Source of the DNA: Bacteroidaceae bacterium
GTDB taxonomy: Bacteria > Bacteroidota > Bacteroidia > Bacteroidales > Bacteroidaceae
Direction of reading: 5' to 3'
DNA length: 64,000 nucleotides
Assembly (NCBI GenBank): GCA_017645305.1
Contig: JAGCPD010000002.1
Coordinates: 71,104-135,103 of the forward strand
Below, in pieces: positions 3,111-53,790 of this stretch. The notes under the pieces are model-generated. The model was not told where the DNA came from, made no database searches, and saw only the letters and a program-made list of their open reading frames with translations. Position numbers and translations under genes: made by a program. Every line of letters starts with the position of its first letter. The stretch's first letter is position 1.

Positions 3111-5284
3111 ATATAGCAACAGCATCAGAAAAAGAACCCCTCACCCAAAGGGGGAGGACGGGAGGGGGTCTCCGCAACCATGCTTTTGACCTGCTCTGCG
3201 GACTGTGCATCCTGAGGATGGTAACGCTGCACGTTGTCTGCCAGACAACACTGAGGCAGGCTGACTGGTGGAAGGTCATTATGGAGTGGAGCTTCTACCT
3301 GATGAGTTTCTTTTTCTTCAAGGCTGGATATTTCAATAAAGGAGTACAGGGCAATTCGCGTACCTATTGCTGGGACAAGTTCCGCCGCTTGATGATTCCA
3401 TATTTCTCATGGGCTGCCATCAGTGCCTGTGTATGCCTGTTCTTCATGCTGGCTTTCCCCGGAAGATTCCCCGGCACAGAACACTCTTTCCATCACTTCA
3501 GGCTATGGGTAGGAGGCTTTACCTGGGGGAACAGCCCCCTGTGGTTCCTGCCCTGTTTCTTTACCTCTTATATCATTGTCCATTTCATAGAAAAGGTACG
3601 GCATCTGCATCTGGTAATCCTATTCTTCCCGTTGCTAAGCTACTGGCTATATAAACTGGGCAATCCCCTCTACCTGATGATGAACAACGTGTTCTGCGGT
3701 GCCTTCTTCTTTTATTTAGGTAAGGTATGGCACAAGACACTGGACTGGACCGGAGATAAGAAAGGGCTGATACTGAGCATCGTACTGATCGCAGCATTTG
3801 TATGCGTGAACATATACCTGCACGGTGAATATGAAATGAAGACGAACACCTTTACGGGTCCTTTCTGGCAAGTCATGCTCAATACAATACTGGCACTGCT
3901 TGGACTGTCCGGGCTTCCCCTGACCATGCACATCAGGCGCATACCGGGCATCTGCCATATCGGAGAGCACAGCATGGTATATTTTGTGGCGCACTACCCC
4001 CTGATTATGTGCTACGTATATATTGCTACGCTTGCGGGGCATAACATCAAGAAGAGCGTACCCGACATGTTTTTAATGACCATCCTGGTTTTTATTATCT
4101 GCACGTTGTTGGTTCCCCTGGTTGAAAGGGTGTTCTGGCTGAGCGGGAAAAGCCTCCCCCAGCCACTCCGAAAGAAGGACGAACAAACGGGGCGACCTGT
4201 AGTTTATTTCTATCATACTCAAGATACGGTACGGATTGTAAGGGAATGGAAAGAAGGAATCTTTCCTGCCCACTTCCTATATGGAGCCCTGCAACTGGAG
4301 CAGTACGGCTTTGATATCATCTGGCACGACCAGATTCATCTGTACAAACGTGTCCGTGACACCCTGAAGGCTACATGGAAGATTCTTACCTGCCGTAAAC
4401 CTTACGACATTCTGTATGCCACACATACGCGGGGCATTGAACCCATTATACTGCTTCATGCCATAGGTCTATACAGAAAACCCATCGTAGTATGGCATCA
4501 CCAGCCCATCGTAAAGGCAAAGAACCGTTTACGCGAGGCTTTGGCACGCCTTTTCTACCGTGGAATGGACCACATGATATTCTTCTCAGAGAAACTAATA
4601 CAGGACAGCCTGAAATCGGCAAAGGCCGACCCGACCCGCATGAGCATGGTTCACTGGGGGGCCGATCTGGCCTTTTACGACAGCCTCTCCCGTTCCCTCC
4701 AAAAGAGAAGTGGCAATCCATCAGGTGAAACTTCGTCCATCCTCACCTCCAATGGAGGAGCCGGTGGAAGCTTCATCTCCACAGGAAAGGAACTGAGAGA
4801 CTACAAGACACTGACAGAAGCTTTTAACAACACAGGGCTTCCCCTTATACTTTTCACCCAGAAACAACAGGAAGGACTGTTCACCAACCTGAAAAGAAGA
4901 GAGAACATAGACTTGCGTTTTGGAGAACGGCTGATGCCCTATGAGATTGCCCTGTTGGTGGCACAGAGCCAGTGCGTATGCATCTGCTGTAAACAGAGCA
5001 ACTATACGGTAGGACTCACCACCGTTGTAGAAGCAATGGCACTGGGGCTGCCCATCCTATGCACCAGAAACCCGCAGATGCCCATGGATCTGGAGGCAGA
5101 GGGATGCGGCATTTACCTGGAACCTTACGACAGGGAAGGCTGGGAGCGTGCCATCCGGTACATTGCCGAGCACCCCGAAGAGGCTAAGGAAATGGGAAGA
5201 AAGGGCCACCTGCTGGCAGAGAAATACTATAATGTGGAACAATGCGCGAAGGAAGTAGCGAAGATAATTAAAAATGAAGGCTAA
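3107..5284 (+). CDS. Fusion protein: acyltransferase family 3 membrane domain plus C-terminal GT4-type (GT-B) glycosyltransferase domain
   Basis: 725-aa ORF. Residues ~24-350 are paralogous to the ORFs at 45924-46943 and 46933-47961 (RNHAFDLLCGLCILRM..FFFFKAGYFNKG..WLSG). The C-terminal half carries GLTTVVEAMALGLPIL, typical of GT4. The start overlaps the flippase stop (ATGA at 3107-3110). Confidence 0.75.
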   Translation: MNIATASEKEPLTQRGRTGGGLRNHAFDLLCGLCILRMVTLHVVCQTTLRQADWWKVIMEWSFYLMSFFFFKAGYFNKGVQGNSRTYCWDKFRRLMIPYFSWAAISACVCLFFMLAFPGRFPGTEHSFHHFRLWVGGFTWGNSPLWFLPCFFTSYIIVHFIEKVRHLHLVILFFPLLSYWLYKLGNPLYLMMNNVFCGAFFFYLGKVWHKTLDWTGDKKGLILSIVLIAAFVCVNIYLHGEYEMKTNTFTGPFWQVMLNTILALLGLSGLPLTMHIRRIPGICHIGEHSMVYFVAHYPLIMCYVYIATLAGHNIKKSVPDMFLMTILVFIICTLLVPLVERVFWLSGKSLPQPLRKKDEQTGRPVVYFYHTQDTVRIVREWKEGIFPAHFLYGALQLEQYGFDIIWHDQIHLYKRVRDTLKATWKILTCRKPYDILYATHTRGIEPIILLHAIGLYRKPIVVWHHQPIVKAKNRLREALARLFYRGMDHMIFFSEKLIQDSLKSAKADPTRMSMVHWGADLAFYDSLSRSLQKRSGNPSGETSSILTSNGGAGGSFISTGKELRDYKTLTEAFNNTGLPLILFTQKQQEGLFTNLKRRENIDLRFGERLMPYEIALLVAQSQCVCICCKQSNYTVGLTTVVEAMALGLPILCTRNPQMPMDLEAEGCGIYLEPYDREGWERAIRYIAEHPEEAKEMGRKGHLLAEKYYNVEQCAKEVAKIIKNEG

Positions 5285-5293
5285 CCCTTTTTC

Positions 5294-5373
5294 AATTAAC
5301 AATTAACAATTAATAATTATTTCACTAACCGCTAACCACTAACCGCTAACCGCTAACCGCTAACCGCTAACCA
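5294..5373. repeat. Heptamer array: (AATTAAC)x3-4 followed by (CTAACCG)x7
   Basis: Read directly: aattaac aattaac aattaat aattatt tca ctaaccg ctaacca ctaaccg x4 ctaacca. It ends 9 nt before the ATG at 5383. Confidence 0.95.
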
Positions 5374-5382
5374 AGAAAAAAT

Positions 5383-9739: not shown

Positions 9740-9757
9740 GTTATATTCGTTTTATTA

Positions 9758-10606: not shown

Positions 10607-10651
10607 TTCTTCAATTCATAGTTTTTAATTCATCATTCATAATTTTTTCTT

Positions 10652-10744
10652 GGTTAGCGGAATTTAACGATAACGAAAACGAAAACCAAGACTATTTTCT
10701 TTGTTAATTGTTAATTATGAATTGTGAATTGTAAATTGTGAATT
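10652..10744. repeat. Mosaic short-repeat array (GGTTAGC, AACGAT/AACGAA hexamers, TTGTTAA/TTGTGAA heptamers)
   Basis: Read directly in the ntpE to DUF2764 intergenic gap: ggttagcggaatttaacgataacgaaaacgaaaacc...ttgttaattgttaattatgaattgtgaattgtaaattgtgaatt. Confidence 0.9.
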
Positions 10745-11330
10745 AGAAAAGCATTTCTACAAGTTGAGGACGCAGGAAGTTCTTAAAATAAGCCTCGAAC
10801 TCATCCTTGCCGAAATTCACCTTATAGCTACCGTCTGCGGGAGAAACAGAAAGCATGGTATCCTTCCCGTTTACTTTGTTGATGGTAACCCCTTTATCGA
10901 GGAGTTCCTTAGCATGGGCGGCGAAATATGCCTTCAGACTTTCAGCCTCGTTTGAAGACAGCACCACAGCCTCATTGCCGGCCCACTTACTCGCCAGCAT
11001 CACGGCAAACTGTCCCAGGAAGTTCTTGTCAGCAGCCAAACCAGCTGCAGCATCCTTGGCCACTCTGTCAGTAAGTACATTGGCAATCTCGCTCTTCAGC
11101 GCATTCAATGCCTGACTTGTATAAAGCTTCAGCTCGCTTTTTGTGTTTGTATCCAATTCGGATGCCTTCTTCTGAGCCTGAGCCTCAATAGCCTTAGCCT
11201 GCTCCCTTGCTTCTGCAATAATCTGCTCGGCCGTATGCTTTGCCTCCTCGACAATACGATCTGCTTCGGCCTGACCTTTTTCTACGCCTTCGCGATAGAT
11301 TTTCTCAGTAAGTTCTTGTATTTTTTCCAT
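10743..11330 (-). CDS. ntpE: V-type ATP synthase subunit E-like (peripheral stalk)
   Basis: 195 aa. The N-terminal half is an A/E/K-rich coiled coil (..AEADRIVEEAKHTAEQIIAEAREQAKAIEAQAQKKA..). It is the first gene of the V-ATPase cluster. Confidence 0.75.
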   Translation of the reverse strand: MEKIQELTEKIYREGVEKGQAEADRIVEEAKHTAEQIIAEAREQAKAIEAQAQKKASELDTNTKSELKLYTSQALNALKSEIANVLTDRVAKDAAAGLAADKNFLGQFAVMLASKWAGNEAVVLSSNEAESLKAYFAAHAKELLDKGVTINKVNGKDTMLSVSPADGSYKVNFGKDEFEAYFKNFLRPQLVEMLF

Positions 11331-25734: not shown

Positions 25735-25751
25735 ATAATGTTTGTATTTTG

Positions 25752-25887
25752 GGTTAGCGGTTAGCGGTTAGCGGAATTTAACGATAACGATAACGAAAAC
25801 TTTTTTCTTGGTTAGCGGTTAGCGGTTAGCGAACTTCTAAAGTCTAAAGTCTAATGCCTAAAGTCTAATGCCTAAAGTCTAATGCCT
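25752..25887. repeat. Mosaic array: (GGTTAGC)x3, AACGAT hexamers, (GGTTAGC)x3, (CTAAAGTCTAATGC)x3
   Basis: Read directly in the intergenic gap between 25734 and 25913. Confidence 0.95.
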
Positions 25888-25912
25888 GTAAAATTCTTTC
25901 ACTTTTCATTTT

Positions 25913-29365: not shown

Positions 29366-29583
29366 AAAATAAAATCCATGATTTATTTTGTATTCCGCTC
29401 ACCTACCCGTAATTTTGAGGTTGCCTCGAAATTACTTCCGCTCATGAATAAAAATAAAAGCCGTTTTATTTTGTATTCCGCTCACTTACCCGTAATTTTG
29501 AGGTTGCCTCGAAATTACTTCCGCTCATGAATAAAAATAAAAGCCGTTTTATTTTGTATTCCGCTCACTTACCCGTAATTTTG
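29366..29583 (+). repeat. 83-bp tandem repeat, ~2.5 copies, each carrying a full promoter consensus
   Basis: tttattttg anchors at 29382, 29465 and 29548 give a period of 83. The copies are near identical, with one C/T difference. Confidence 0.9.
29553..29583 (+). promoter_or_regulatory. Proximal promoter of the fucosidase gene (third repeat copy)
   Basis: TTTG (29553-56), a 19-nt spacer, then TAATTTTG (29576-83), 23 nt before the ATG at 29607. Identical boxes occur at 29410-17 and 29493-500. Confidence 0.55.
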
Positions 29584-29606: not shown

Positions 29607-31229
29607 ATGATGAAGAATAACAGTATCCTTTTACTTTCGTTACTTTGGACATGGATGCCCGCTACTGCACAGAAGTACAAAATACCCGTATCGGAACAAC
29701 ACGAGCAGATGCAGACAGGCAAGTACGAACCTACGTGGGAATCATTAGAGACTCACCAGACACCGGAATGGTTCCGCGATGCCAAGTTCGGCATCTGGGC
29801 TCACTGGGGACCACAGTGTGTGGAAGGTTCGGGTGACTGGATGGCCCGCTCCCTTTATATGGAGGGCAGCCCGGAGTATAAATGGCACGTTGAACATTAC
29901 GGACATCCATCGGAGGTGGGTTTCAAGGACATCCTGCCACAGTTCAAAGCCGAACGCTGGGAACCCGAGAAACTGGTGGAACGATATAAACGGTGCGGTG
30001 CACAGTATTTCTTTGTTCTGGGTAACCATCATGACAATTACGACCTGTGGGACTCCAAGTATCAGCCGTGGAACTCTAAGAACATCGGTCCGCACAAAGA
30101 CATTCTGGACGAATGGGCTAAGGCTGCAAAGAAAGCCGGACTGCCGCTGGGCATCTCGTTCCATGCCGACCATGCCTGGACGTGGTACGAGCCTTCGCAG
30201 CGCTACGACCTGCAGGGCGAAAAGGCCGGCATCTGGTACGACGGGAACCTGACAAAGGAGGACGGCAAAGGCAAATGGTGGGAAGGGCTGGACCCGCAGA
30301 TGCTTTATCAGCAGAATCACCCCATGAGCCAGGGCTCGTGGGACAACGGTCGCATCCATGCACAGTGGGGATGGGAGAATGGAGCCTGTCAGCCTTCACA
30401 GCAATTCGTCACAAACTTCTACGACCGTACCCTTGATGCCATCAATCGCTATCAGCCCGACCTTATCTACTTTGACGTAACAGTACTGCCCTTCTACCCG
30501 CTAAGCGACTGCGGACTGCGCATAGCTGCACATCTTTATAACAAGAATCCTCGCGGCGTGGTGTTCGGCAAGATTCTCAGCGACGACCAACGTAAGGCGC
30601 TGACATGGGATGTGGAGCGCGGGGCACCAAACGAGATTATCCCCATTCCCTGGCAAACCTGCAACTGCATAGGCGGCTGGCACTACAACACCAGCATCTA
30701 CGAGCACGGCTATTACAAGTCGGCTGCCACCGTAGTAAAACAACTGGTGGATATTGTATCTAAGAACGGAAACCTGCTCCTGAGCATTCCCCTGCGCGCT
30801 GACGGCACTTACGACGAGAAGGAATCAAAGATACTGGATGACCTGGAAGCGTGGATGACGCAGAATGGCGAAAGCATTTTCGGCACCCGTCCGTGGATGA
30901 AGTTCGGCGAAGGACCTGTGGCTGAGAAGGACATCAAAATCAATGCCCAGGGCTTTAACGAAGGGCAGTTCTCTGCCATGGACTCCAGGGACATTCGTTT
31001 TAACCAGACAAAGCAGTATCTGTACGCCACCGCAATGGGATGGCCGTCAGACAACAGGCTGGTCATAAAATCCTTGGCCAAGGACAACAATTACTTCAAG
31101 AAGCGCATCAGCAGCGTACGGCTTCTGGGCTACGGCAAACTGAAGGTTCGCCAGACAGAAGAAGGACTTGAAGTAGAGCTGCCAAAGCCAGTAAATCAGA
31201 TTGCCCCCGTGCTGAGAATCGATAAATAA
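29607..31229 (+). CDS. Alpha-L-fucosidase (GH29)
   Basis: Signal peptide, then GH29-like wording ..EWFRDAKFGIWAHWGPQ.. and ..FVLGNHHDNYDLWDSKY... Confidence 0.85.
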   Translation: MMKNNSILLLSLLWTWMPATAQKYKIPVSEQHEQMQTGKYEPTWESLETHQTPEWFRDAKFGIWAHWGPQCVEGSGDWMARSLYMEGSPEYKWHVEHYGHPSEVGFKDILPQFKAERWEPEKLVERYKRCGAQYFFVLGNHHDNYDLWDSKYQPWNSKNIGPHKDILDEWAKAAKKAGLPLGISFHADHAWTWYEPSQRYDLQGEKAGIWYDGNLTKEDGKGKWWEGLDPQMLYQQNHPMSQGSWDNGRIHAQWGWENGACQPSQQFVTNFYDRTLDAINRYQPDLIYFDVTVLPFYPLSDCGLRIAAHLYNKNPRGVVFGKILSDDQRKALTWDVERGAPNEIIPIPWQTCNCIGGWHYNTSIYEHGYYKSAATVVKQLVDIVSKNGNLLLSIPLRADGTYDEKESKILDDLEAWMTQNGESIFGTRPWMKFGEGPVAEKDIKINAQGFNEGQFSAMDSRDIRFNQTKQYLYATAMGWPSDNRLVIKSLAKDNNYFKKRISSVRLLGYGKLKVRQTEEGLEVELPKPVNQIAPVLRIDK

Positions 31230-31235
31230 TCCGTT

Positions 31236-31448
31236 AACGATTAGCGGTTAGCGAAGTTTAACCAAAACGATAACCAAAACGAAAACCGTTTTAGACTTTA
31301 GGCGTTAGACTTTAGACTTTAGTAACGAGAACGAAAATTATTTTGGGTTAGTGGTTAGCGGTTAGCGAAATAATTGTTCATTGTTAATTGTTCATTGTTA
31401 ATTGTTCATTATTAATTGTTCATTATTAATTGTTCATTATTAATTGTT
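31236..31448. repeat. Largest mosaic array: GGTTAGC, AACCAAAACGAT, AGACTTT units and (TTGTTCATTGTTAA/TTGTTCATTATTAA)x5
   Basis: Read directly. It fills the whole 226-nt gap between 31229 and 31456. Confidence 0.95.
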
Positions 31449-31455
31449 TTAAAAA

Positions 31456-32310
31456 ATGATCAAAGAATATCTGGTACTGAGCCGATGCAACGGAACCACC
31501 CGAACAGGCTCGCCGTATGCAGTACTTAAAGTTGCCAACCTGATAGAGACAATAAACATCTCAGTGTGGGACCTGCAGCCCACGGCAGAGCCCAAAGTCG
31601 GGCAACTGGTAAGTTTCTATGCCATAAAAGACAATGCAGGAAAGAAATCCTGCTCCGTAACCGACATGAAGCCCGGGCTGATGCCGCTGTTGGACCACCC
31701 CCTGTATAATCTGCTCCCCCGCCCTATTCGCAGGGATGTGTGGGACAATACCATAAACGCACTTGTTGCCTTCTGCTCAGACCAAAGCCTCATCCCCATT
31801 ATCCGCGATTTTGCCGACAAGCTATACGCTCCTTATAGCAAATATCCGGCAGCTACCAGCGTACATCACGCTTTCCCCGGCGGTCTCACAAACCACACCT
31901 ACCAGATGCTGCACATGCTGGAAGGCCTGTACCCTTGCCTGCCCTATGAGATAAAGATAGAACGCTGCATACTGGCCATCCTGTTCCATGACTACGGAAA
32001 AGTCTATGAGTACAATACGGAAGGTGAATCGCAGGCCGACATGTACCTGCTGGGACACATCTTTATCAGCGCACATAAGTTGCAGAACGTACTGGAGCAG
32101 CAGGGTATTGACAACGAGGAAATCAAGCGCATCATACACATTGTACTGGCTCATCACGGGACACGGGAGTTCGGCAGCCCCGTTCTACCCTGTACTCAGG
32201 AAGCCGTCATTGTAAATATGCTTGACAATCTGAGTGCCAAGACAGATGCCATAGAGGGTACGGGAGATATGGAAGCGTGCTCCCCCTTAGGAACCCGTAT
32301 AGTTAAGTAA
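31456..32310 (+). CDS. OB-fold plus HD-domain phosphohydrolase (YhaM-like 3'-5' exonuclease architecture)
   Basis: The N-terminal ~80 aa look OB-like. HD-domain residues are ..HHAFPGGL..HT.. and ..LFHDYGK.. ..LAHHG... Confidence 0.65.
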   Translation: MIKEYLVLSRCNGTTRTGSPYAVLKVANLIETINISVWDLQPTAEPKVGQLVSFYAIKDNAGKKSCSVTDMKPGLMPLLDHPLYNLLPRPIRRDVWDNTINALVAFCSDQSLIPIIRDFADKLYAPYSKYPAATSVHHAFPGGLTNHTYQMLHMLEGLYPCLPYEIKIERCILAILFHDYGKVYEYNTEGESQADMYLLGHIFISAHKLQNVLEQQGIDNEEIKRIIHIVLAHHGTREFGSPVLPCTQEAVIVNMLDNLSAKTDAIEGTGDMEACSPLGTRIVK

Positions 32311-34543: not shown

Positions 34544-34647
34544 ATTTTCCCAATTTTCTACTCAATTCCGAGCTAAAAATTCACAAGGGGAGAAACTTTT
34601 TTTTGGCAAAAAAAGAGGAAATCTGTCGAGAAACGCCTGTCAAATCA
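34544..34647 (+). repeat. Direct repeat copy A (~100 bp) flanking the ATPase gene
   Basis: attttcccaattttctactcaattCcgagctaaaaattcacaagGggagaaac(t)n ggcaaaaa..gaggaaatCtgtcgagaa...caaatca aligns with 36105-36204, with a handful of mismatches and indels. Confidence 0.9.
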
Positions 34648-34700
34648 CGGGGTGCGTAAAGGTCAAAGGGCTTGCGGTAATGGTTTATTGGCACTCTGTT

Positions 34701-35957
34701 CTATTCCAGAAGCCATTTCCACGCAGGAATAACTTCGATGGCACTATTCTCAAGCCTGATGGTTTCTTCCTCATCAAAGGTTACAATAACCATACGTTTC
34801 AACGGATGAAGGGCGTGCAGTTTCCTTAATCCCTCAATCTCACGTCTTCTGGTTTCCTCATCATTGATGGAGTATGAGACCTGCACGGCATACCCTTCTT
34901 CTGCAACGAAGAAATCCACCTCCACGTTCTTATGATAGAAATATAGTCCCTCTCCATATTTCGAATAAAGGTGTACGGCACACAAATTCTCTAAAAGCGC
35001 CGTCTCGCCATCTGTCAAGAAAATACTCAGCAGACCGTTATCCATGAAATAATGCTTCTTGACTGTTTCTTTCTCAACGAATTTCGAGGCATAGTTTTCC
35101 AGAGGAAATAGGATACAAGCCTCTTTGGCATAACGTACATAATCAATGACTGATGCCACCGAAGTACTTACGCCTGTTCCCTTCACCAAATTACAAACTC
35201 TATTATAGGATGTAGGCTGCATCACATTGTCCGCCAGACGTTTTATGGTCAGACGGAGAGCCATTTCGTTTTTCACCTTGTTACGCTGAATCACATCACC
35301 AAGCAGGATTTTCTCGTAGAGATCATTGAGCCAGTGACGCTTGTTCCGGTAAAGCAATAACTCTGGGAATCCACCCCACTTCAGATATTCAGCAAAAGCC
35401 TGCTGAACTTTAGAACGCGATTTCCCAAACTGCCATTCCTTTGTCAATCGGACACCTTGAGCCTCAAGATATTCTATAAACGAATAGGGATATACCTTTA
35501 CGTCCATATATCTGCCCCCAAGCGTAGTCTGTATATCCCTGCTCAGCATTTTGGCATTGCTACCAGTGATAAATACCTGATATTTCTGATTAGCGAGCCG
35601 ACGGGCAAAATGTTCCCATCCCTCCACATTCTGTATTTCATCAAAAAAGAGAATAGGCTTATAACTGTAAACGGAACTATGGGCTTGCAAAATCAAATCG
35701 AATTCACCGGCCGTCATTCCCAACAGACGCTCATCATCGAAATCAATATATACTATTTCTTCCGGTTGGTGTCCATTGGCCAATAGTTGTTTGGCTCGTT
35801 TGTAGAGCATATAGCTTTTCCCTGCCTGCCTAACGCCAACAAGCACATATCGTCCATTCCCCTCAAATTCGAAACGACGATCATAGAGTTCCACTTCTCT
35901 AATAATCTCCTGGCCTTCCCTGATGAGCGTTCTGAAAGTTTCCTTAGTAATAGCCAT
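34701..35957 (-). CDS. AAA+ ATPase of the AAA_14/DUF4143 family
   Basis: 418 aa with Walker A GVRQAGKS and Walker B-like LFFDEIQ. The C-terminal half fits DUF4143-type proteins. Confidence 0.8.
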   Translation of the reverse strand: MAITKETFRTLIREGQEIIREVELYDRRFEFEGNGRYVLVGVRQAGKSYMLYKRAKQLLANGHQPEEIVYIDFDDERLLGMTAGEFDLILQAHSSVYSYKPILFFDEIQNVEGWEHFARRLANQKYQVFITGSNAKMLSRDIQTTLGGRYMDVKVYPYSFIEYLEAQGVRLTKEWQFGKSRSKVQQAFAEYLKWGGFPELLLYRNKRHWLNDLYEKILLGDVIQRNKVKNEMALRLTIKRLADNVMQPTSYNRVCNLVKGTGVSTSVASVIDYVRYAKEACILFPLENYASKFVEKETVKKHYFMDNGLLSIFLTDGETALLENLCAVHLYSKYGEGLYFYHKNVEVDFFVAEEGYAVQVSYSINDEETRRREIEGLRKLHALHPLKRMVIVTFDEEETIRLENSAIEVIPAWKWLLE

Positions 35958-36104: not shown

Positions 36105-36204
36105 ATTTTCCCAATTTTCTACTCAATTACGAGCTAAAAATTCACAAGAGGAGAAACTTTTTTTGGCAAAAAGAGGAAATGTGTCGAGAACTCCCGCCAA
36201 ATCA
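36105..36204 (+). repeat. Direct repeat copy B
   Basis: See copy A. It has the same orientation and lies 1561 bp away. Confidence 0.9.
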
Positions 36205-36257
36205 TTATTTCTATAATCAGTCTTTTCAATCTTGACCCCATAGAAAACTCGACACTC

Positions 36258-43505: not shown

Positions 43506-44399
43506 TTATGAAAGGATGCTGCGAACCTGCGGGAGTGTCAGCCTTCGGTCTAAATCCATGAAATAATGCGGATGACTGATACGCTTCTCCTCGGGGGGTA
43601 ACTGCATATAGTCACCGTAAAGGGTGCGAAGGTAGGCATCGTAGTCGCGGGGAATGATAAGCGTGGTATCCTCGAAGGGCACTTCTGTCACATCACGGAA
43701 CCACTCCGAACGGAAGATTCTGCCCTCCCACTGCGTTACACAGACACACTTGGGTCCCGGCCCGTTATGCTTGTACCCCTCTTGGAACTGAAGGAATGCC
43801 TGCAAATACTTCTGCGGACAGCGGCTGCGCCATTTGCTCAGAACCTGAACGCCCAGACGGTGTACATCGGCAGAGAAGAGGGACTTTGCCATATCGGTGA
43901 ATGAATAATGGCTGACGGCATTCAGGTACTTGTCGAAGTAATAATGACTGCGGTACTGACGTGCCGTAATCACTTCGTCAGGTTCGTCGAACTCATCGAG
44001 CGGAAAAATATCTATGCTGACACCGAACAGGAAAGGCAGATGCTTGAACTCCCAGATGGTACTGCGGCAATCGGCTATCTTGGCAAAAGGCATGTAGTAT
44101 CCGGAATGGATAATGGATGATGGACAATTGACAATTGATGATGGATAATTGACAATTGGCTGTTGGCAGCTGAGGAGTTCATATCCGGTGCCCTGAAACT
44201 CGTGGGCTAATTGCAACAACTGCTCATAGTCCTTGCGGGGCATATAGAGGTCGATATCATCATCCCAAGGAATAAAACCTTTATGGCGGATAGCACCTAA
44301 GACAGTTCCGCCACAACCTATATAACGGAGGTTGTGCCGTTGGAAGAGTTCCTTTGCAAACCGGAACACCTCCAACAGACGATTCTTTAAGACATCCAT
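43506..44399 (-). CDS. licD: LicD-family phosphotransferase
   Basis: N-terminal LicD block ..YIGCGGTVLGAIRHKGFIPWDDDIDLYMPRKDY... Confidence 0.85.
   Translation of the reverse strand: MDVLKNRLLEVFRFAKELFQRHNLRYIGCGGTVLGAIRHKGFIPWDDDIDLYMPRKDYEQLLQLAHEFQGTGYELLSCQQPIVNYPSSIVNCPSSIIHSGYYMPFAKIADCRSTIWEFKHLPFLFGVSIDIFPLDEFDEPDEVITARQYRSHYYFDKYLNAVSHYSFTDMAKSLFSADVHRLGVQVLSKWRSRCPQKYLQAFLQFQEGYKHNGPGPKCVCVTQWEGRIFRSEWFRDVTEVPFEDTTLIIPRDYDAYLRTLYGDYMQLPPEEKRISHPHYFMDLDRRLTLPQVRSILS
44108..44158. repeat. Heptamer array (GACAATT/GATGATG/GATAATT) lying in-frame inside licD
   Basis: ggataatggatgatggacaattgacaattgatgatggataattgacaattgg encodes QQPIVNYPSSIVNCPSSIIHSG on the minus strand. Confidence 0.9.
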
Positions 44400-47973: not shown

Positions 47974-47998
47974 CACAAAAATCGTATAATTGGTACAA

Positions 47999-48029
47999 TT
48001 ATGAATTACGAATTATGAATTATGAATTA
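47999..48029. repeat. Heptamer array (TTATGAA/TTACGAA)x4 between divergent promoters
   Basis: ttatgaa ttacgaa ttatgaa ttatgaa tta. Confidence 0.9.
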
Positions 48030-48048: not shown

Positions 48049-49065
48049 ATGAAACAAGCACTTGTGGACGTTTCCGTCCTGATTTTATTCTTCAACCGCC
48101 CCGAACCGTTGAAGCAGGTTTTTGCACAAGTGCAGAAAGCACGACCTGCCCGGCTATTCCTGTATCAGGACGGCCCCCGCTCTGAAAAAGACATGGAGGG
48201 TATCCTTGCATGCAGGGAAGTTGTCGGCCAGATAGACTGGGACTGCGAGGTTCATCAGTTGTACCAAGAGCGCAACTATGGATGCGACCCCTCTGAGTTT
48301 ATCTCACAGAAATGGGCTTTCAGCCAAACAGAGAAGTGCGTGGTGCTGGAAGATGATGACGTACCTGCCGTTTCGTTCTTCGCCTTCTGCAAAGAGATGC
48401 TCGACCGTTATGAGAACGATGAGCGCATTACCATGATTTCCGGATTTAACGTAGAAGAACAGACCAACGATGTAAAAGAGGATTATTTCTTCTCTACAAA
48501 CTTCAGCATCTGGGGGTGGGCTTCATGGAGAAGGGTCGTTGACCAATGGAACGAGCACTATACATGGATGGACGATGAACAAGCGGTAGCCCAAATTAAG
48601 ACTGTTATCAAGGAACGGGGATACCGCAACGACTTCCTGCCTATGTGTGAACAACACAGGGCACAAGGCAAAGCGTTCTACGAGACCATCTTCTGGGCAC
48701 ATCTGCTGATGAGCAACGGGCTCTGCATTGTCCCCCGCCGCAATATGATAAACAATCTGGGTGCCACAGCCGGCAGCACTCATTTTGGCGGGTCGCTTGA
48801 GACGATGCCACATGGATATCGCCGTATCTTTACCATGAAGAGGTTTGAACAGGAAACACCCGTCCAACATCCTGCGTACATAATGGAGCACATTGCATAC
48901 CGCAAAAGAGCCTACAAAATTATGGGATGGATGAATCCGTGGATAAAGATCGGCCGCTCTTTTGAAGAACTGTTCCTGAACCTGCGCTACGGCAATTTCC
49001 GTTTCATCTTCCAATCTCTGAACAAACGCATCCTTAAATGGATGGGAAAGACAGCATACAAATGA
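48049..49065 (+). CDS. Putative GT-A fold glycosyltransferase (GNT-I-like)
   Basis: N-terminal VSVLILFFNRPEPLKQVF and the acidic DxD-like VVLEDDDV. The family call is tentative. Confidence 0.55.
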   Translation: MKQALVDVSVLILFFNRPEPLKQVFAQVQKARPARLFLYQDGPRSEKDMEGILACREVVGQIDWDCEVHQLYQERNYGCDPSEFISQKWAFSQTEKCVVLEDDDVPAVSFFAFCKEMLDRYENDERITMISGFNVEEQTNDVKEDYFFSTNFSIWGWASWRRVVDQWNEHYTWMDDEQAVAQIKTVIKERGYRNDFLPMCEQHRAQGKAFYETIFWAHLLMSNGLCIVPRRNMINNLGATAGSTHFGGSLETMPHGYRRIFTMKRFEQETPVQHPAYIMEHIAYRKRAYKIMGWMNPWIKIGRSFEELFLNLRYGNFRFIFQSLNKRILKWMGKTAYK

Positions 49066-50198
49066 AAGTCCTCTTGGTTAGTACCAGTGACCGGATAGGC
49101 GGAGGTGCCATTGCTGCCTACCGGCTTATGGAAGCCCTGAACAACAACGGCGTTAAGGCTAAGATGCTGGTACGCGACAAGATTTCATCCTCTGTTACTG
49201 TGACCCAGATAGGAACAAAAATCCCTAAGATTCTGGAACGACTGCAAATTATGTCACACCTTAAAGGCAAACAGTGGCAGGCAGATACGGCCGACTTCGG
49301 CATCGACATAACAAAGACTGAAGAATATAAAGAGGCTGACATCATTCACCTGCATTGGATTAACCAGGGAATGGTTTCACTTTCCTGTCTGACGCGAATG
49401 ATTAAAGACGGTAAGAAGATTGTCTGGACGCTGCATGACGAATGGCCTTACTTGGGAATCTGTCACTACAGAGGCGAATGCCAGGAAACCGAATGCAGGA
49501 AATGTCCCCTCCTGCCGGGCAGCATAGCACACAGGCACTACCTCAGAAAGCAGGAACTATATAAAAAAGGAAATATCACCTTTGTTGGATGCAGCCAATG
49601 GATAACAGAAAGAGCACGGCAGGCTATGCCGGATGCCCAGGTGGTTCATATTAACAACTGCATTCCCCACAACATATTCCGTTACACAGACCAACAGGAA
49701 GCCCGCAAGAAACTGAACCTCCCCAAGAATAAGAAAATCGTTCTCTTCTGCTCGCAGAACCTGAACGACGAACGCAAAGGCTACACCTACCTGCTGCAAG
49801 CCCTGGAAAACCTTTCAACTTTCAACCATCAACTTTCAACTATATGTGTGGGCAAAGGTGCCACGTACATCAATAGCCAGGAAGAGATGGCTGCCATGTA
49901 TGCCGCAGCGGATGTTTTCGTAACCCCCAGCCTACAAGATAATCTGCCCAACACCATAGCGGAAGCAATGTCGTGCGGAACACCCTGCGTAGGTTTCCAG
50001 GTAGGAGGCATACCAGAGATGATAGATCATCTGCAGAATGGTTATGTTGCCAAATACAAAGATGTTGCCGATTTGGCAGAGGGCATACAATATGTACTTT
50101 CCCATGATTTGCGCAAAGCGGCTCTCCACAAGGCTGCATCGGCTTATGGCGAAACTCATGTGGCCCAAAAATATATTAACGTATATGAATCCAGATAA
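49062..50198 (+). CDS. Glycosyltransferase family 4 (GT-B)
   Basis: I start at MKVLLVSTSDRIGGG (ATGA overlap with the upstream stop). C-terminal ..GFQVGGIPEMIDHLQNGYV.. is the E-x7-E type block. Confidence 0.85.
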   Translation: MKVLLVSTSDRIGGGAIAAYRLMEALNNNGVKAKMLVRDKISSSVTVTQIGTKIPKILERLQIMSHLKGKQWQADTADFGIDITKTEEYKEADIIHLHWINQGMVSLSCLTRMIKDGKKIVWTLHDEWPYLGICHYRGECQETECRKCPLLPGSIAHRHYLRKQELYKKGNITFVGCSQWITERARQAMPDAQVVHINNCIPHNIFRYTDQQEARKKLNLPKNKKIVLFCSQNLNDERKGYTYLLQALENLSTFNHQLSTICVGKGATYINSQEEMAAMYAAADVFVTPSLQDNLPNTIAEAMSCGTPCVGFQVGGIPEMIDHLQNGYVAKYKDVADLAEGIQYVLSHDLRKAALHKAASAYGETHVAQKYINVYESR

Positions 50199-50991
50199 AG
50201 TTGCAAATACAACACTCCCGCTTATAACCATAGCTACTGTCACCTATAATGCCGAGGCTACCCTGCAACGCACATTAGACAGTGTGATGTCGCAGGACTA
50301 TGCCCGTATCGAGCATCTTATCATTGACGGGCTGTCCACCGATAAAACACTCAGCCTTGTCCAGCGGTATGTGGAGCAGAACAACAACAGACACCAGATA
50401 CGCTTGTCGAGCGAACCCGACGAGGGACTTTATGATGCGATGAACAAGGCGCTGGTGCAGGCTACCGGCGAATATATTGTTTTCCTGAATGCAGGAGACA
50501 AACTGCACAGTCAGGACACCATTTCAAAAGTAGTGGAATGTGCGGGATGGAGGAAAGGCAACAATGGCAATCCTGCCATTTTGTACGGTGAGACGGATTT
50601 GGTGGATAACGAGGGAAAGTTTATCCGTCACAGGCGCTTAAAAGCTCCCAAAGTCCTGACGTGGAAAAAATTCCTCAGCGGAATGCGCGTTTGTCATCAG
50701 TCGTTCTACGTCCGTACAGATTTGGCAAGAAGTGAAAGCTACAATCTCAGCTACCGTTATTCTGCCGACTATGACTGGTGCATTCGCATCATGAAGAAAG
50801 CAGCCAAACGAAGAATACCCATTAAGAATACCGGTCAGATTCTTACTGATTACCTGAGCGAGGGAATGACCACCAAGAATCACCGAAAATCCCTCATGGA
50901 ACGCCTTCGCCTTATGGCCAGGCATTACGGATGGGGGCCCGCCATTACGGCACACTGCTGGTTTGTTATAAGAGCCGTCATCAAGAGATAA
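50185..50991 (+). CDS. Glycosyltransferase family 2
   Basis: I start at MNPDKVANTTLPLITIATVTYNAEATL. The ORF-track start at 50038 lies inside the previous gene. ..IIDGLSTD.. and ..FLNAGD.. are present. Confidence 0.85.
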   Translation: MNPDKVANTTLPLITIATVTYNAEATLQRTLDSVMSQDYARIEHLIIDGLSTDKTLSLVQRYVEQNNNRHQIRLSSEPDEGLYDAMNKALVQATGEYIVFLNAGDKLHSQDTISKVVECAGWRKGNNGNPAILYGETDLVDNEGKFIRHRRLKAPKVLTWKKFLSGMRVCHQSFYVRTDLARSESYNLSYRYSADYDWCIRIMKKAAKRRIPIKNTGQILTDYLSEGMTTKNHRKSLMERLRLMARHYGWGPAITAHCWFVIRAVIKR

Positions 50992-51051: not shown

Positions 51052-51096
51052 CTAAAGTCTAAGGTCTAAAGTCTAAAGTCTAAAGTCTAAAGTCTA
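51052..51096. repeat. Heptamer array (CTAAAGT)x6
   Basis: ctaaagt ctaaggt ctaaagt x4, ending 6 nt before the proC ATG. Confidence 0.95.
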
Positions 51097-51879: not shown

Positions 51880-52787
51880 AACTGACGGACAGAGTATTGC
51901 AAACAATGAAATCAACCGACACGGAAAGCCGGTTCGAACTCTACGTTACCCGCACACCAGGCTTCCTGTGGGCACTGCTGTTCCAGAAGCTGGGCATTCA
52001 TCCCATAGCGGTTACGCTCATGAGTATCATTATCGGGGCTGCCAGCGGATACTTTTTCTATCTTCCCGACCTAAGGATGAACATCATTGGAGTTTTCCTC
52101 CTGATTTGGGCCAACTGGTACGACTGCGCCGACGGACAGTTAGCCCGTATGACAGGGAAAAAAACGCTTATCGGCCGTATTCTTGATGGGTTTGCCGGTG
52201 ATGTCTGGTTTTTCTGTATCTATCTTGGCATCTGTCTGAGGCTGACACCGGAATGGGGTATATGGGTATGGCTCCTGGCAGCATGGTCGGGACTCCGTTG
52301 TCACGGACGGCAATGCGCCATAGGCGACTACTACAGAAACATTCACCTATGGTTCTTCCTGGGGGAGAATGGAAGCGAGTTTGTTACCAGCCAACAAGAA
52401 AAGGAGGAATACCAGAGCCTGAAATGGCAGAGCCGGGAATGGTTTCATAAGTTATACCTATTCTTTTATATAAGATATACAAAGAGTCAGGAAGACCAGA
52501 CACCCAGCTTCCAGAAACTCTTCCATGCCATTCAGGACAGGCTGGGCGGAACAGTTTCTGCCGACATGAGGCAGCGCTTCCGTCAAGACAGCCTTCCGCT
52601 GATGCCTATCACGAACATTCTCACTTTCGACACAAGAGCCGGCGTTCTGTTCCTCTCTGTCTTAATTGGAATGCCATGGATATATTTTGTGTTCGAAGCA
52701 ACTGCATTGGAAATCCTCCGTTACTGGATGATACACAGACACGAAACCTTCTGTCAGAAATACCTTAAAGAGATAATGAACAATTAA
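51876..52787 (+). CDS. CDP-alcohol phosphatidyltransferase family membrane protein
   Basis: Full signature DCADGQLARMTGKKTLIGRILDGFAGD (D-x2-DG-x2-AR-x8-G-x3-D-x3-D). ATGA overlap with proC. Confidence 0.8.
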   Translation: MKLTDRVLQTMKSTDTESRFELYVTRTPGFLWALLFQKLGIHPIAVTLMSIIIGAASGYFFYLPDLRMNIIGVFLLIWANWYDCADGQLARMTGKKTLIGRILDGFAGDVWFFCIYLGICLRLTPEWGIWVWLLAAWSGLRCHGRQCAIGDYYRNIHLWFFLGENGSEFVTSQQEKEEYQSLKWQSREWFHKLYLFFYIRYTKSQEDQTPSFQKLFHAIQDRLGGTVSADMRQRFRQDSLPLMPITNILTFDTRAGVLFLSVLIGMPWIYFVFEATALEILRYWMIHRHETFCQKYLKEIMNN

Positions 52788-52925
52788 CAATTAATAATTA
52801 ACAATTAATAATTTCACTAACCGCTAACCCTTTTTCAATTAACAATTAACGATTAACAATTAACCTCCCCAAAAGGGTTTTGGTTTTCGTTATCGTTTTC
52901 GTTAAATTCCGCTAACCGCTAACCA
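52779..52925. repeat. Mosaic array (AATTAAC heptamers, CTAACCG, GTTTTCGTTATC hexamers); starts inside the last codons of the upstream CDS
   Basis: It shares the 27-bp string ctaaccctttttcaattaacaattaac with 5281-5307. Confidence 0.95.
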
Positions 52926-52928
52926 ATA

Positions 52929-53642
52929 ATGAAGAACGACAAACATATAGCTCTGTTACTTGCCGGCGGCAAATCATCAAGAATGAATACCAATCGCCCC
53001 AAGCAGTACCTTGAGGTAAACGGAGAAAGCGTCCTCAAGCATACAATGAGAGCCTTTCAGACTCATCCGCTCATACAAGACATCTATGTGGTATGTGCCC
53101 GAGGCTGGGAGGAGACAGTGTGCGACGAGGCTCAGAGCGGTGAAATCACCAAGTTCCGCCACACAATAATCGGAGGGGAAACATCCTTCCAATCCCTAAA
53201 GAACGGTATCATGTATCTGCTGCAAGAAGGAAAAGACCTGGAGTCCATTGTTCTTGTTCACGATGCTGTACGGCCGCTCATCAGTCAGGATGTCATCAGC
53301 CGTAACATTGCCGTTTGTCTGACACACGGGAATGCCATAACTGCCGTACGCAGTCAGGAAGCCTTCCTTGTCAGCGATGACGGAAGCTGTAGCAACAGCT
53401 ATATACCCCGCGAGAATCTGCTGCGTGCACAGACCCCTCACACCTTCCCGTTAAAAACGCTGAAAGAGATGATGGAGAAAACCAACAAGTGCGGAATCTC
53501 CAAGTCCCAGTCGCTCTTCACCCTGGCCAACGAGCTGGGCTTCCTGCCCCTTCACATAGCACAGGGCGACATCATGAACTTCAAGCTTACCTACCCCAAC
53601 GACATCCTTATCTACCAGGCTCTGAAGACGCTGGAAGAATAA
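52929..53642 (+). CDS. IspD/TarI-family cytidylyltransferase
   Basis: N-terminal LLLAGGKSSRM..PKQYL. 237 aa. I cannot tell from sequence alone whether it is MEP-pathway IspD or a ribitol-phosphate type enzyme. Confidence 0.75.
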   Translation: MKNDKHIALLLAGGKSSRMNTNRPKQYLEVNGESVLKHTMRAFQTHPLIQDIYVVCARGWEETVCDEAQSGEITKFRHTIIGGETSFQSLKNGIMYLLQEGKDLESIVLVHDAVRPLISQDVISRNIAVCLTHGNAITAVRSQEAFLVSDDGSCSNSYIPRENLLRAQTPHTFPLKTLKEMMEKTNKCGISKSQSLFTLANELGFLPLHIAQGDIMNFKLTYPNDILIYQALKTLEE

Positions 53643-53703
53643 ACCCTGACGCAAATAAGGTATCATCTAATTCGCTACGCACCCACTTTTCCTTGATATA
53701 CCA

Positions 53704-53746: not shown

Positions 53747-53790
53747 AAAACCGTTTTAGACTTTAGGCGTTAGACTTTAGTAACCAAAAC
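53747..53790. repeat. Copy of the AAAACCGTTTTAGACTTTAGGCGTTAGACTTTAG module
   Basis: A 34-bp string is identical to 31284-31317. Confidence 0.9.

What the first reader, a model, noticed from the sequence alone, without database searches (positions are those of the whole stretch)
31236..31448. Mosaic family of heptamer microsatellite arrays fills many intergenic regions
At least nine loci carry tandem 7-mers drawn from a small vocabulary: 5294-5373, 10652-10744, 25752-25887, 31236-31448, 44108-44158, 47999-48029, 51052-51096, 52779-52925 and 53747-53790. The units are CTAACCG/GGTTAGC, AATTAAC/TTGTTAA, CTAAAGT/AGACTTT and TTATGAA, plus AACGAT/AACGAA hexamers. The units are shuffled into different orders and orientations. 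Longer strings are shared between distant loci. The 27-bp string ctaaccctttttcaattaacaattaac occurs at 5281 and 52823. The 34-bp string aaaaccgttttagactttaggcgttagactttag occurs at 31284 and 53747. Arrays usually end within 0-40 nt of a start codon, and two overlap stop codons (5282 and 52785). They are too degenerate to be simple slippage tracts. They are too short and spacer-less to be CRISPR. They are not palindromic like REP elements. I do not recognise them as a described element class.
Basis: seen in the sequence. Interest (0 to 1): 0.65.

Follow-up and report, generated by a model that had tools for sequence, protein, structure and literature searches.

The report
Heptamer-repeat hairpin elements filling gene junctions
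The 7-base repeat arrays are real, and most are the arms and fragments of small hairpin-forming repeat elements that have multiplied into gene junctions of an uncultured rumen Bacteroidales bacterium; in related bacteria similarly built elements, using other 7-base units, carry a small gene otherwise known from ribosomal-RNA intervening sequences.

Summary
Period-7 arrays drawn from a small vocabulary fill about 9 of 19 longer intergenic regions, far above chance, and both long shared strings exist.

The interpretation needs revision.
- The arrays are not independent microsatellites. GGTTAGC arrays and GTTAATT arrays (the reverse complement of AATTAAC) are the two arms of one hairpin family. 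It has a conserved loop and conserved junction strings. I found 6 copies in about 73 kb of this genome and none in the loci I hold from relatives.
- Pairing depends on G·U wobble, so only one strand folds. In 5 of 6 copies the non-folding strand is the mRNA sense strand.
- Orthologous junctions in relatives are either empty (overlapping stop/start, 12 nt or less) or carry 86-191 bp inserts. Most inserts have inverted arms of period-7 or period-8 arrays, and each genome has its own unit vocabulary.
- In relatives, similarly built elements with other units carry a 120-aa PF05635/TIGR02436 gene. This is the four-helix-bundle "23S rRNA intervening-sequence" protein. It sits between two ~32-nt arms of ~4.6 heptamers each.
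- Arm copy number varies between samples (4 versus 8 copies).

No such gene lies in the window, and the spreading mechanism is unknown. Intergenic heptamer arrays are a known bacterial phenomenon. The hairpin organisation and the link to the intervening-sequence gene seem undescribed.

The parts
5280..5382 (-). Hairpin copy W1 between a glycosyltransferase/acyltransferase gene and an acyltransferase gene. It reads (AATTAAC)x4 - TTTCA - (CTAACCG)x7 on the + (mRNA sense) strand. The minus strand reads (GGTTAGC)n - GTGAAATAA - (TTATTAA/TTGTTAA)n and is the one that folds.
   Evidence: TRF. Folding: plus strand -2.6, minus strand -27.3 kcal/mol (z=-4.4). Alignment A1.
10607..10742 (-). Insert between V-ATPase subunit E (10743-11330) and the DUF2764/subunit C gene (9758-10606). 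It has inverted arms (AATTCAC/AATTCAT/AATTAAC)n and (ATGAATT)n. The centre holds an AACGAW hexamer run and one CTAACC unit.
   Evidence: TRF. RNA fold -25.2 kcal/mol, z=-2.9. The orthologous junction is empty or differently filled in 58 related loci.
25735..25912 (-). Mosaic between a Fasciclin-domain gene and a PD40-repeat gene: (GGTTAGC)x3 - GGAATTT(AACGAW)n - (GGTTAGC)x3 - (CTAAAGT/CTAATGC)n - (TTTCACT)n. All units are direct and no strand folds well.
   Evidence: Fold z=+1.9 and +2.5. The orthologous junction is only 12 bp in relatives L202 and L203.
31230..31455 (+). The focal locus, between an alpha-L-fucosidase gene and an HD-domain gene. Layout: A-arm 31239-31252; nested hexamer run 31259-31287; (TTTAGAC)n module 31290-31322; hexamers 31323-31337; A-arm 31346-31367; loop GAAATAA; B-arm (TTGTTCATTGTTAA)n 31377-31448. 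It is the only copy whose folding strand is the mRNA sense strand.
   Evidence: 31340-31458 folds at -21.4 (z=-3.2) against -2.8 for the other strand. Relatives carry an 89-95 bp (GGTTATN)x4 ... (CTAACCN)x4 hairpin at the same junction.
44105..44158 (-). Heptamer array (AATGGAT/AATTGAC, period 21) lying in frame inside a LicD-family gene. It encodes ...PIVNYPSSIVNCPSSIIHS....
   Evidence: TRF. The Pfam LicD match spans 243 residues for 226 profile positions. Translation.
47997..48029 (+). Single (AATTATG)x4.7 array in a divergent intergenic region, 24 nt before the start of gene 48049-49065. TACCTTTG, a match to the Bacteroidetes -7 consensus (TAnnTTTG, from my own knowledge), lies between the array and the start codon.
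51052..51096 (+). (CTAAAGT)x6.4 array ending 6 nt before the start codon of the pyrroline-5-carboxylate reductase gene (9 nt if the partial unit CTA is not counted).
52775..52925 (-). Two tandem hairpin copies (W8a, W8b) plus a hexamer run, between a CDP-alcohol phosphatidyltransferase gene and an IspD-like gene. It shares the strings CTAACCCTTTTTCAATTAAC and ATTTCACTAACCGCTAACC with W1. The minus strand folds.
   Evidence: Folding: plus strand -17.2, minus strand -36.5 kcal/mol.
53747..53790 (+). Second copy of the (TTTAGAC/GGCGTTA) module with AAAACCG / TAACCAAAACG flanks, in the convergent region after rpoC. It differs from the 31282 copy by one heptamer.

Best explanation
The arrays are the periodic arms, and nested fragments, of a lineage-specific family of small ORF-less hairpin elements.

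Shown:
- The elements have multiplied within this genome and sit almost only at gene junctions. Most lie between a stop codon and the next start codon of same-strand neighbours.
- One family consists of a (GGTTAGC)n arm, a conserved loop GTGAAAT(A)A and a (GTTAATT)n arm.
- A second family has (AATTCAT)n and (ATGAATT)n arms.
- CTAAAGT modules and AACGAW hexamer runs lie nested inside these arrays or next to them.
- In related Prevotella-like genomes, elements built the same way carry a 120-aa PF05635/TIGR02436 'four helix bundle' ORF. This is the protein family encoded in 23S rRNA intervening sequences. The ORF sits between two ~32-nt arms of ~4.6 heptamers.

Inferred:
- After a copy is laid down, replication slippage changes unit number, unit mutations are homogenised along an array, and new copies land inside old arrays. 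Together these give the shuffled mosaic and the shared junction strings.
- The window's elements are the miniature, gene-less derivatives of such cassettes.
- They are mainly selfish or neutral passengers, transcribed within operon mRNAs.
- They are tolerated because the usual orientation leaves the mRNA strand unstructured, with a C/A-rich tract and a short A-rich linker before the start codon. That suits Bacteroidetes, which do not use Shine-Dalgarno pairing.
- Where the mRNA strand does fold, RNase III processing like that of rRNA intervening sequences is likely.

The copying mechanism (transposition in trans, an RNA or single-strand intermediate, or gene conversion between arrays) is not established.
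For: - Conserved architecture: loop and junction strings are conserved among W1, W4, W8a and W8b (alignment A1; exact strings). Two further copies lie at the rhaB|rhaA and rhaA|rhaT junctions just outside the window in the same genome.
- Lineage specificity: a signature search finds the complete hairpins only in this genome (W8b is a partial copy that the pattern misses) and none in the loci I hold from other genomes.
- One-strand folding: -27.3 vs -2.6, -36.5 vs -17.2, -27.3 vs -3.1, -18.0 vs -4.7, and -21.4 vs -2.8 for the inverted copy.
- Insertion polymorphism at the V-ATPase E|C junction: the spacer is bimodal, either overlapping stop/start or 12 nt or less, or 86-191 nt.
- Insertion polymorphism elsewhere: the Fasciclin|PD40 junction is 12 bp in relatives and 178 bp here, while the PD40|DUF6057 junction is 135 bp with arrays in the relative and about 12 bp here.
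- One vocabulary per genome, used at several junctions of that genome.
- PF05635 ORF between heptamer arms at several different junctions in related genomes: V-ATPase junctions, FtsX|adaptor, DUF4391|methylase, plus a divergent copy in L036 flanked by same-orientation (GACTCTA)n arrays.
- Arm copy number is 4 or 8 with an identical ORF. The module at 31282 and its copy at 53747 differ by one unit.
- Assembler word depth over the arrays is 16-140 times that of the flanks in metagenomes holding this genome.
- Precedent: the Coxiella IVS has an S23p ORF, a 28-bp terminal stem cut by RNase III, and strain-variable tandem GACAGAT heptamers (PMC4990558).
Against: - No PF05635 ORF occurs in the window, in 20 kb of flanking sequence, or next to GGTTAGC arrays in about 120 loci from other phyla. 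That check used a local HMM built only from Prevotella-type sequences.
- No ORF-bearing copy with GGTTAGC/GTTAATT arms was found, so the link of this window's main family to the cassette rests on analogy and on the AATTCAT locus.
- No clear target-site duplication and no transposase were found.
- Several arrays (25735-25912, 51052-51096, 47997-48029) have no inverted partner and no fold.
- The PF05635 gene could be just another small gene whose two junctions were colonised like any other junction.
- The orientation bias of 5 of 6 is not statistically significant.
- Some relatives carry non-periodic GC-rich hairpins at the same V-ATPase junction. That fits host selection for any intercistronic hairpin.
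Confidence: 0.55

Rival explanations
1. They are ordinary long simple-sequence repeats. Each array grew in place by polymerase slippage, which favours 7-nt units in many bacteria. The shared vocabulary reflects mutational bias only, with no copying between loci.
For: Heptamer arrays are widespread. (GGTTAGC)x3 occurs in more than 120 loci from many phyla, with other heptamers beside it. A permuted control heptamer is about as frequent in viral contigs: 14 loci against 16. Slippage clearly acts: 4 vs 8 copies and a one-unit difference between copies. For the literature, see Mrazek 2007 as quoted in PMC4679880 and PMC4692102.
Against: Non-repeat junction and loop strings of 17-34 bp are identical at distant loci. 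The same arm-loop-arm order recurs 6 times in this genome and nowhere in the related loci. Empty orthologous sites have overlapping stop and start codons, which leaves no seed sequence to expand.
Confidence: 0.1
2. They are host-selected intercistronic control elements. In this reading the hairpins act as mRNA stabilisers or RNase III processing sites that set the relative output of operon genes (as REP/BIME elements do in E. coli), or the unstructured C/A-rich tracts act as Shine-Dalgarno-independent translation leaders.
For: - They lie almost only between same-strand genes and end 4-25 nt before start codons.
- In 5 of 6 copies the mRNA strand is essentially unstructured.
- The V-ATPase E|C junction carries some hairpin, periodic or not, in about half of the lineages.
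- MacGregor proposed translational regulation for TAACTGA repeats next to start codons (PMC4679880).
Against: About half of the relatives do without any spacer at the same junction. Different lineages fill different junctions of the same gene cluster. Sequence and orientation are not conserved. V-ATPase hairpins show no sense-strand bias: the sense strand folds better in 7 of 21. One copy sits inside a coding region.
Confidence: 0.2
3. They are phase-variation or 'rheostat' repeats. Frequent copy-number changes would tune or switch the downstream genes, many of which are surface-polysaccharide genes.
For: Several arrays flank glycosyltransferase, acyltransferase and LicD genes. Copy number differs between samples at a related element.
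Against: Arrays also sit in housekeeping operons: V-ATPase, rhamnose catabolism, proC, ispD-like, and after rpoC. They lie between stop and start codons rather than between promoter hexamers. Seven-base steps outside coding sequence cause no frameshift. Assemblies of this strain from several samples are essentially identical (100% to 99.95%) and show no difference in any array.
Confidence: 0.05
4. They are arrays of binding sites for an oligomeric nucleic-acid-binding protein. One candidate is the pentameric four-helix-bundle protein itself, with one heptamer per subunit. Others are a cold-shock or S1-type protein.
For: Arms flanking PF05635 ORFs are strikingly uniform at 4.4-4.9 units, about 32 nt. 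The Xanthomonas homologue is a homopentamer (cited in PMC4990558). B. subtilis CspB binds heptamer repeats one protein per unit (cited in PMC4679880).
Against: There is no binding data. Window arrays range from 3 to 11 units. The vocabulary differs between genomes while the protein is 70-80% conserved. No such gene lies in the window.
Confidence: 0.1

Closest known systems
Intergenic heptanucleotide simple-sequence repeats. Examples are the LSSRs of Mrazek 2007; the cyanobacterial tandem heptanucleotides of Calothrix (called STRR, from my own knowledge); TAACTGA repeats of Beggiatoaceae, cyanobacteria and some Bacteroidetes (PMC4679880); and GGGAATC/GGGGAYT repeats of Xanthomonas and Nostoc (PMC4692102).
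   Same: Tandem 7-nt units, overwhelmingly intergenic and often right next to a start codon. Several different heptamers can sit side by side. Paired inverted arrays occur sometimes. Length varies between relatives.
   Different: Here the arrays are organised into a repeated arm-loop-arm unit with conserved non-repeat loop and junction strings. Pairing is by G.U wobble on one strand only. Modules are nested inside each other. The units are A/T-rich and not G-quadruplex-forming. In relatives the arms enclose a PF05635 gene.
23S rRNA intervening sequences that encode S23p, the PF05635 four-helix-bundle protein (Coxiella, Leptospira; PMC4990558).
   Same: Size is about 430-460 nt. The same small ORF lies between terminal inverted repeats that form a ~28-32 bp stem. 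Tandem heptamers next to the ORF vary in number between strains. ORF-less short forms exist.
   Different: These elements lie between protein-coding genes in operons, not in 23S rRNA helices. The whole stem is built of heptamer repeats. RNase III excision is untested here. The window itself holds only ORF-less forms.
REP/BIME elements of enterobacteria.
   Same: High-copy, extragenic, imperfectly palindromic units. They are combined in mosaics in both orientations and lie mostly between co-transcribed genes or after operons.
   Different: The arms here are tandem heptamers rather than a single ~35-bp palindromic unit. No RAYT-type transposase was seen. Families are specific to single species-level lineages.
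BrickBuilt, a MITE of Porphyromonas gingivalis that contains a minisatellite (PMC4596501).
   Same: The host is a Bacteroidales bacterium. It is an intergenic, multi-copy, spacer-less tandem repeat embedded in a small non-autonomous element with inverted ends.
   Different: BrickBuilt has 23-nt units, leader and tail subunits and promoter activity. It keeps 49-591 nt away from genes. Here the units are 7 nt, the arrays themselves are the inverted arms, and they abut stop and start codons.

Membership tests
Heptanucleotide LSSR / STRR-type simple-sequence repeats | Head-to-tail tandem copies (3 or more) of a 5-11 nt unit, with 7 nt the commonest | tested here: met
   TRF. Period-7 arrays number 39, against 11 or fewer for other periods.
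Heptanucleotide LSSR / STRR-type simple-sequence repeats | Mostly intergenic location | tested here: met
   All but two arrays (44105-44158 and 49812-49841) lie between ORFs. In related loci all period-7 arrays of at least 3 copies are intergenic.
Heptanucleotide LSSR / STRR-type simple-sequence repeats | Copy number varies between strains | tested here: inconclusive
   A related element shows 4 vs 8 copies. The window's own arrays could only be compared with essentially identical assemblies (100% to 99.95%).
MITE (miniature inverted-repeat transposable element) | Terminal inverted repeats, small size and no transposase gene | tested here: met
   Arm-loop-arm elements of 60-200 bp.
MITE (miniature inverted-repeat transposable element) | Target-site duplication | tested here: inconclusive
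   Filled and empty V-ATPase junctions were compared. An ATG at both borders in some copies could equally be part of the arm.
MITE (miniature inverted-repeat transposable element) | A cognate autonomous element with a transposase sharing the same ends | tested here: not met
   The longer forms carry only the PF05635 ORF, which is not a known transposase. No transposase lies next to any array examined.
23S rRNA intervening sequence (IVS) with S23p | Insertion in 23S rRNA helix 25 or 45 | tested here: not met
   All copies lie between protein-coding genes. There is no rRNA in the window.
23S rRNA intervening sequence (IVS) with S23p | PF05635 ORF between terminal inverted repeats that form a ~28-bp stem | tested here: inconclusive
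   Met in related loci. No such ORF in the window.
23S rRNA intervening sequence (IVS) with S23p | Excision from the transcript by RNase III | not testable with these tools
   Only one distant metatranscriptome, held as contigs, was available.
REP/BIME | High-copy extragenic imperfect palindromes combined in mosaics | tested here: met
   6 copies in about 73 kb, in both orientations, some in tandem.
REP/BIME | Associated RAYT (IS200/IS605-like) transposase | not tested
   Only a subset of the window's ORFs was scanned against Pfam, and none was a transposase. The rest of the window and the whole genome were not checked.
CRISPR array | Repeats of 23-50 bp separated by unique spacers of similar length | tested here: not met
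   Units are 6-8 nt and contiguous, with no spacers.

The most novel reading that the evidence does not exclude
Tandem heptamer arms are the recognition or assembly sites of the pentameric four-helix-bundle protein (PF05635, a relative of the DGR accessory protein Avd), roughly one unit per subunit. This protein-plus-arms cassette would be a mobile element that inserts at gene junctions and, in other bacteria, into 23S rRNA. If so, one mechanism would account for three unexplained things: rRNA intervening sequences, the function of a very large orphan protein family, and at least part of the intergenic heptamer arrays seen across bacteria.
Probability: 0.12. Interest if true: 0.85.

Novelty: new variant of a known kind. 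Interest (0 to 1): 0.6.

Why it matters
Intergenic heptamer arrays have been noted in cyanobacteria, Xanthomonas, Beggiatoaceae and others for decades without an accepted origin or function.

This case offers three leads:
- In a dominant rumen lineage the arrays are organised as a multiplying hairpin element with one-strand, wobble-based pairing.
- The elements invade tight operon junctions without breaking the operons.
- Similarly built elements in relatives enclose the PF05635 gene known from rRNA intervening sequences.

Together these give a concrete, testable link between three poorly understood things: heptamer repeats, intervening sequences and a very large protein family of unknown function.

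There is also a practical consequence. The arrays break short-read assemblies. Logan contigs end inside them, and word depth over them is 16-140 times that of the flanks.

Tried and rejected
- Known RNA families: Rfam at gathering threshold on the whole window, and at E up to 1 on 31150-31500, gave no match. No tRNA or tmRNA was found.
- CRISPR: rejected, because there are no spacers.
- GGTTAGC as a specially favoured, cross-phylum motif: it occurs in more than 120 loci from many phyla, but a permuted control (GGTTACG)x3 is about as common in viral contigs, 14 vs 16 loci. I make no such claim.
- Selection for RNA structure on the mRNA strand at the V-ATPase hairpins: the sense strand folds better in only 7 of 21, so this is not supported.
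- A PF05635 gene in the window, its 20-kb flanks, the GGTTAGC loci of other phyla or the viral loci: none found with a local HMM. I prepared a Pfam scan of 147 small ORFs next to arrays but did not run it, because most were spurious ORFs of high-GC genomes.
- Transcript evidence: only one distant metatranscriptome held as contigs. It showed a relative without the insert, not processing.
- Strain variation at the window's own arrays: all retrievable assemblies of this strain are essentially identical, 100% to 99.95%. Logan contigs break in the arrays.
- The FopS small-RNA family of Bacteroides: looked up as a possible relative, no connection found.
- Sigma-70-type promoter and terminator scan: nothing above shuffles.

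Full report
**What the window is.** The 64-kb window carries rplA-rplJ-rplL-rpoB-rpoC, a V-type ATPase operon, glycoside hydrolases and polysaccharide-synthesis genes. It is found in bovine and other ruminant gut metagenomes. Its proteins are on record from an NCBI genome on a 158-kb contig. Close homologues are labelled 'Bacteroidaceae bacterium' or 'Prevotella sp.' metagenome-assembled genomes. The source is therefore an uncultured rumen Prevotella-like member of the Bacteroidales, with G+C of about 48%.

- GGTTAGCGGTTAGC with up to 1 mismatch occurs 15 times against 0.02 expected.
- Both long shared strings exist, at 5280/52823 (28 bp) and 31282/53747 (34 bp). Several more non-repeat junction strings are shared by three loci each.
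- Roughly 9 of the 19 intergenic regions longer than 40 bp carry arrays. Regions that look like true promoter regions, such as the one upstream of acpP, do not.
- Period 7 dominates over periods 5-11 in the window plus 58 related loci.
- One listed array (44105-44158) lies in frame inside a LicD gene as a 54-bp, period-21 stretch.

**The arrays are not independent, and they are not non-palindromic.** AATTAAC is GGTTAGC with three G-to-A transitions. Its reverse complement GTTAATT pairs with GGTTAGC at all seven positions if G.U pairs are allowed. Wherever the two array types are adjacent they are in inverted orientation. They are separated by the same loop, GTGAAAT(A)A, and successive hairpins are joined by the same string, TTGAAAAAGGGTTAGC (alignment A1). 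Because the pairing needs wobble pairs, only the strand reading GGTTAGC...GTTAATT folds:

| Region | Plus strand (kcal/mol) | Minus strand (kcal/mol) |
|---|---|---|
| 5282-5385 | -2.6 | -27.3 |
| 52785-52931 | -17.2 | -36.5 |
| 31340-31458 | -21.4 | -2.8 |

Two further copies lie just beyond the left edge of the window in the same genome, at the rhaB|rhaA and rhaA|rhaT junctions. Their mRNA sense strand folds at -3.1 and -4.7, and their antisense strand at -27.3 and -18.0. That makes six copies in about 73 kb. A signature search finds the complete hairpins only in this genome (the partial copy W8b escapes the pattern) and finds none in any of the loci I hold from other genomes. In five of the six copies the non-folding strand is the mRNA sense strand, with (CTAACCG)n abutting the start codon. 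This is suggestive but not significant.

**The focal locus, 31230-31455, is nested.** Its layout is a GGTTAGC arm, then an AACGAW/AACCAA hexamer run, then a (TTTAGAC/GGCGTTA) module, then hexamers again, then the rest of the GGTTAGC arm, the loop and the GTTAATT-type arm. The inner module with its flanks recurs at 53747-53790 and differs by exactly one heptamer. This shows copying followed by slippage. The 25735-25912 locus holds the same modules in another order, has no inverted partner and does not fold. Not every array is part of a hairpin.

**Comparison with relatives shows gain and loss.** I fetched 58 metagenome loci encoding relatives (62-93% identity) of the DUF2764/V-ATPase subunit C protein.
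- The junction with the upstream E-subunit gene is bimodal. Stop and start overlap (TAATG, TGATG) or are 12 nt or less apart, or there is an 86-191 bp insert.
- Most inserts consist of a left array, a short unique centre and a right array that is the reverse complement of the left.
- The vocabulary is constant within a genome across junctions and differs between genomes: AATTCAT/ATGAATT, GTAAACAA/TTGTCAAC, GGTTATAA/AACCTCAA, TTTGACAA/AATTGTAA.
- The window's own insert at 10607-10742 is of the AATTCAT type.
- At the fucosidase|HD junction, relatives at 90-92% identity carry an 89-95 bp hairpin, (GGTTATN)x4 ... (CTAACCN)x4, where the window has 226 bp.
- The Fasciclin|PD40 junction is 12 bp in those relatives and 178 bp here.
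- The PD40|DUF6057 junction is 135 bp of arrays in the relative L202 and about 12 bp here.
- A related transcript contig simply lacks the insert.
- These hairpins fold equally well on either strand; the sense strand is better in 7 of 21.

**A gene sits inside the longer forms.** At several V-ATPase junctions the same (AATTCAT)~4.6 and (ATGAATT)~4.6 arms, each about 32 nt, enclose a ~365-nt core with a 120-122 aa ORF. Its start codon directly follows the left arm and its stop codon touches the right arm. The ORF is PF05635 (23S rRNA-intervening sequence protein, E=2.6e-27) and TIGR02436 (four helix bundle protein, E=1.6e-30). The family is large: all 8000 candidates scored passed E of 1e-5 or better, and many sit on short contigs. 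Every other context I sampled has the same layout:
- between FtsX and an RND-adaptor gene, with (AATGCAT)n/(ATGCATT)n or (AATGCAC)n/(GTGCATT)n arms;
- between DUF4391 and a methylase;
- between DUF2764 and the A subunit in pig-gut genomes;
- a divergent copy in a Prevotellaceae genome, flanked on both sides by same-orientation arrays of the near-palindromic unit GACTCTA.

With an identical protein, one sample has 8 left-arm units where three others have 4.

The Coxiella intervening sequence is a 428-nt element with the same ORF family and a 28-bp terminal stem cut by RNase III. Tandem GACAGAT heptamers vary in number among its strains (PMC4990558). I found no paper that connects heptamer arrays with this gene beyond that remark.

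**What is not shown.** No PF05635 gene lies in the window, in 20 kb of flanks, or near GGTTAGC arrays of other phyla or viral contigs. No ORF-bearing copy with GGTTAGC/GTTAATT arms was found. No convincing target-site duplication and no transposase were found. The mode of copying is therefore unknown, and the tie between the window's main family and the gene-bearing cassette is an inference.

**Relation to known things.**
- Intergenic heptamer arrays are an established if unexplained phenomenon (PMC4679880, PMC4692102).
- (GGTTAGC)x3 itself occurs in more than 120 loci of many phyla. A permuted control is about as common in viral contigs, so the unit is probably not special.
- The nearest organisational analogues are REP/BIME mosaics and the BrickBuilt minisatellite-MITE of Porphyromonas (PMC4596501).
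- The nearest structural relative is the S23p-encoding rRNA intervening sequence.

**Verdict.** It is a lineage-specific, multiplying family of hairpin elements whose arms are heptamer arrays, remodelled by slippage and nesting. It probably represents the miniature form of intervening-sequence-like cassettes. It is a new variant of a known kind. The mechanism of spread and any host function remain open.

Noticed in passing
window 832-11330: The V-type ATPase operon is split. E, C(DUF2764), A and B (11330 down to 6666, minus strand) are separated from D (1458-832; I and K follow beyond the window edge). The separating block is an oppositely oriented three-gene set: flippase 1464-3110, acyltransferase/glycosyltransferase 3107-5284 and acyltransferase 5383-6492.
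   Followed up: partly
window 29366-29583: An 83-bp unit is repeated 2.6 times in the divergent region between the DUF6057 gene and the fucosidase gene. Each unit carries TTTTG ... TAATTTTG, which resembles the Bacteroidetes -33/-7 promoter motifs. A relative (L202 5010-5180) has about two copies, so this looks like a tandemly duplicated promoter.
   Followed up: partly
window 34544-34660 and 36105-36210: A direct repeat of about 100 bp (TTTTCCCAATTTTCTACTCAATT.CGAGCTAAAAATTCACAAG...) flanks an AAA_14/DUF4143 ATPase gene (34701-35957, minus strand). A second gene of this family lies elsewhere in the same genome (L246 2057-3421).
   Followed up: no
window 44105-44158: A heptamer array lies in frame (period 21) inside a LicD-family gene and adds about 18 residues (PIVNYPSSIVNCPSSIIHS) within the Pfam domain. 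Array growth can evidently enter coding sequence when three units keep the frame.
   Followed up: partly
window 6526-6586 and 53695-53748: Other short tandem repeats of unknown relation to the heptamers: a 22-bp unit (GTAAATTCAGTGAATTTGATCG) x2.8 next to a terminator-like hairpin, and an 11/22-bp unit (GATATAGCTAC) x4.7 directly before the heptamer module after rpoC.
   Followed up: no
window 49812-49841: (CTTTCAA)x4.3 lies inside the coding region of a family-1 glycosyltransferase gene (49038-50198), which overlaps the next ORF (50038-50991). I did not check whether this reflects a frameshift or mis-called starts.
   Followed up: no
L215 1371-1650, L219 1308-1587, L223 1153-1432 (IMG/VR viral contigs): Viral contigs of about 47-51% G+C carry the same kind of mosaic. 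Examples are (GGTTAGC)x3-4 followed by AATAA(TTTTCAA)n, or flanked by direct copies of GACGGAATAACGACATAACGGA. Such arrays therefore also occur in phages or prophages; the hosts of these contigs were not determined.
   Followed up: partly
L138-L142, L155, L158 (V-ATPase E|C junction): Some lineages carry a 91-96 nt non-periodic, GC-rich hairpin at the junction where others have heptamer-arm hairpins or nothing.
   Followed up: no
window 31251-31455 in runs X1, X5, X7, X8: Assembler word depth over the arrays reaches 5294, against about 38 in the flanks. Contigs end in the arrays, so these repeats fragment short-read assemblies of rumen Bacteroidales.
   Followed up: yes
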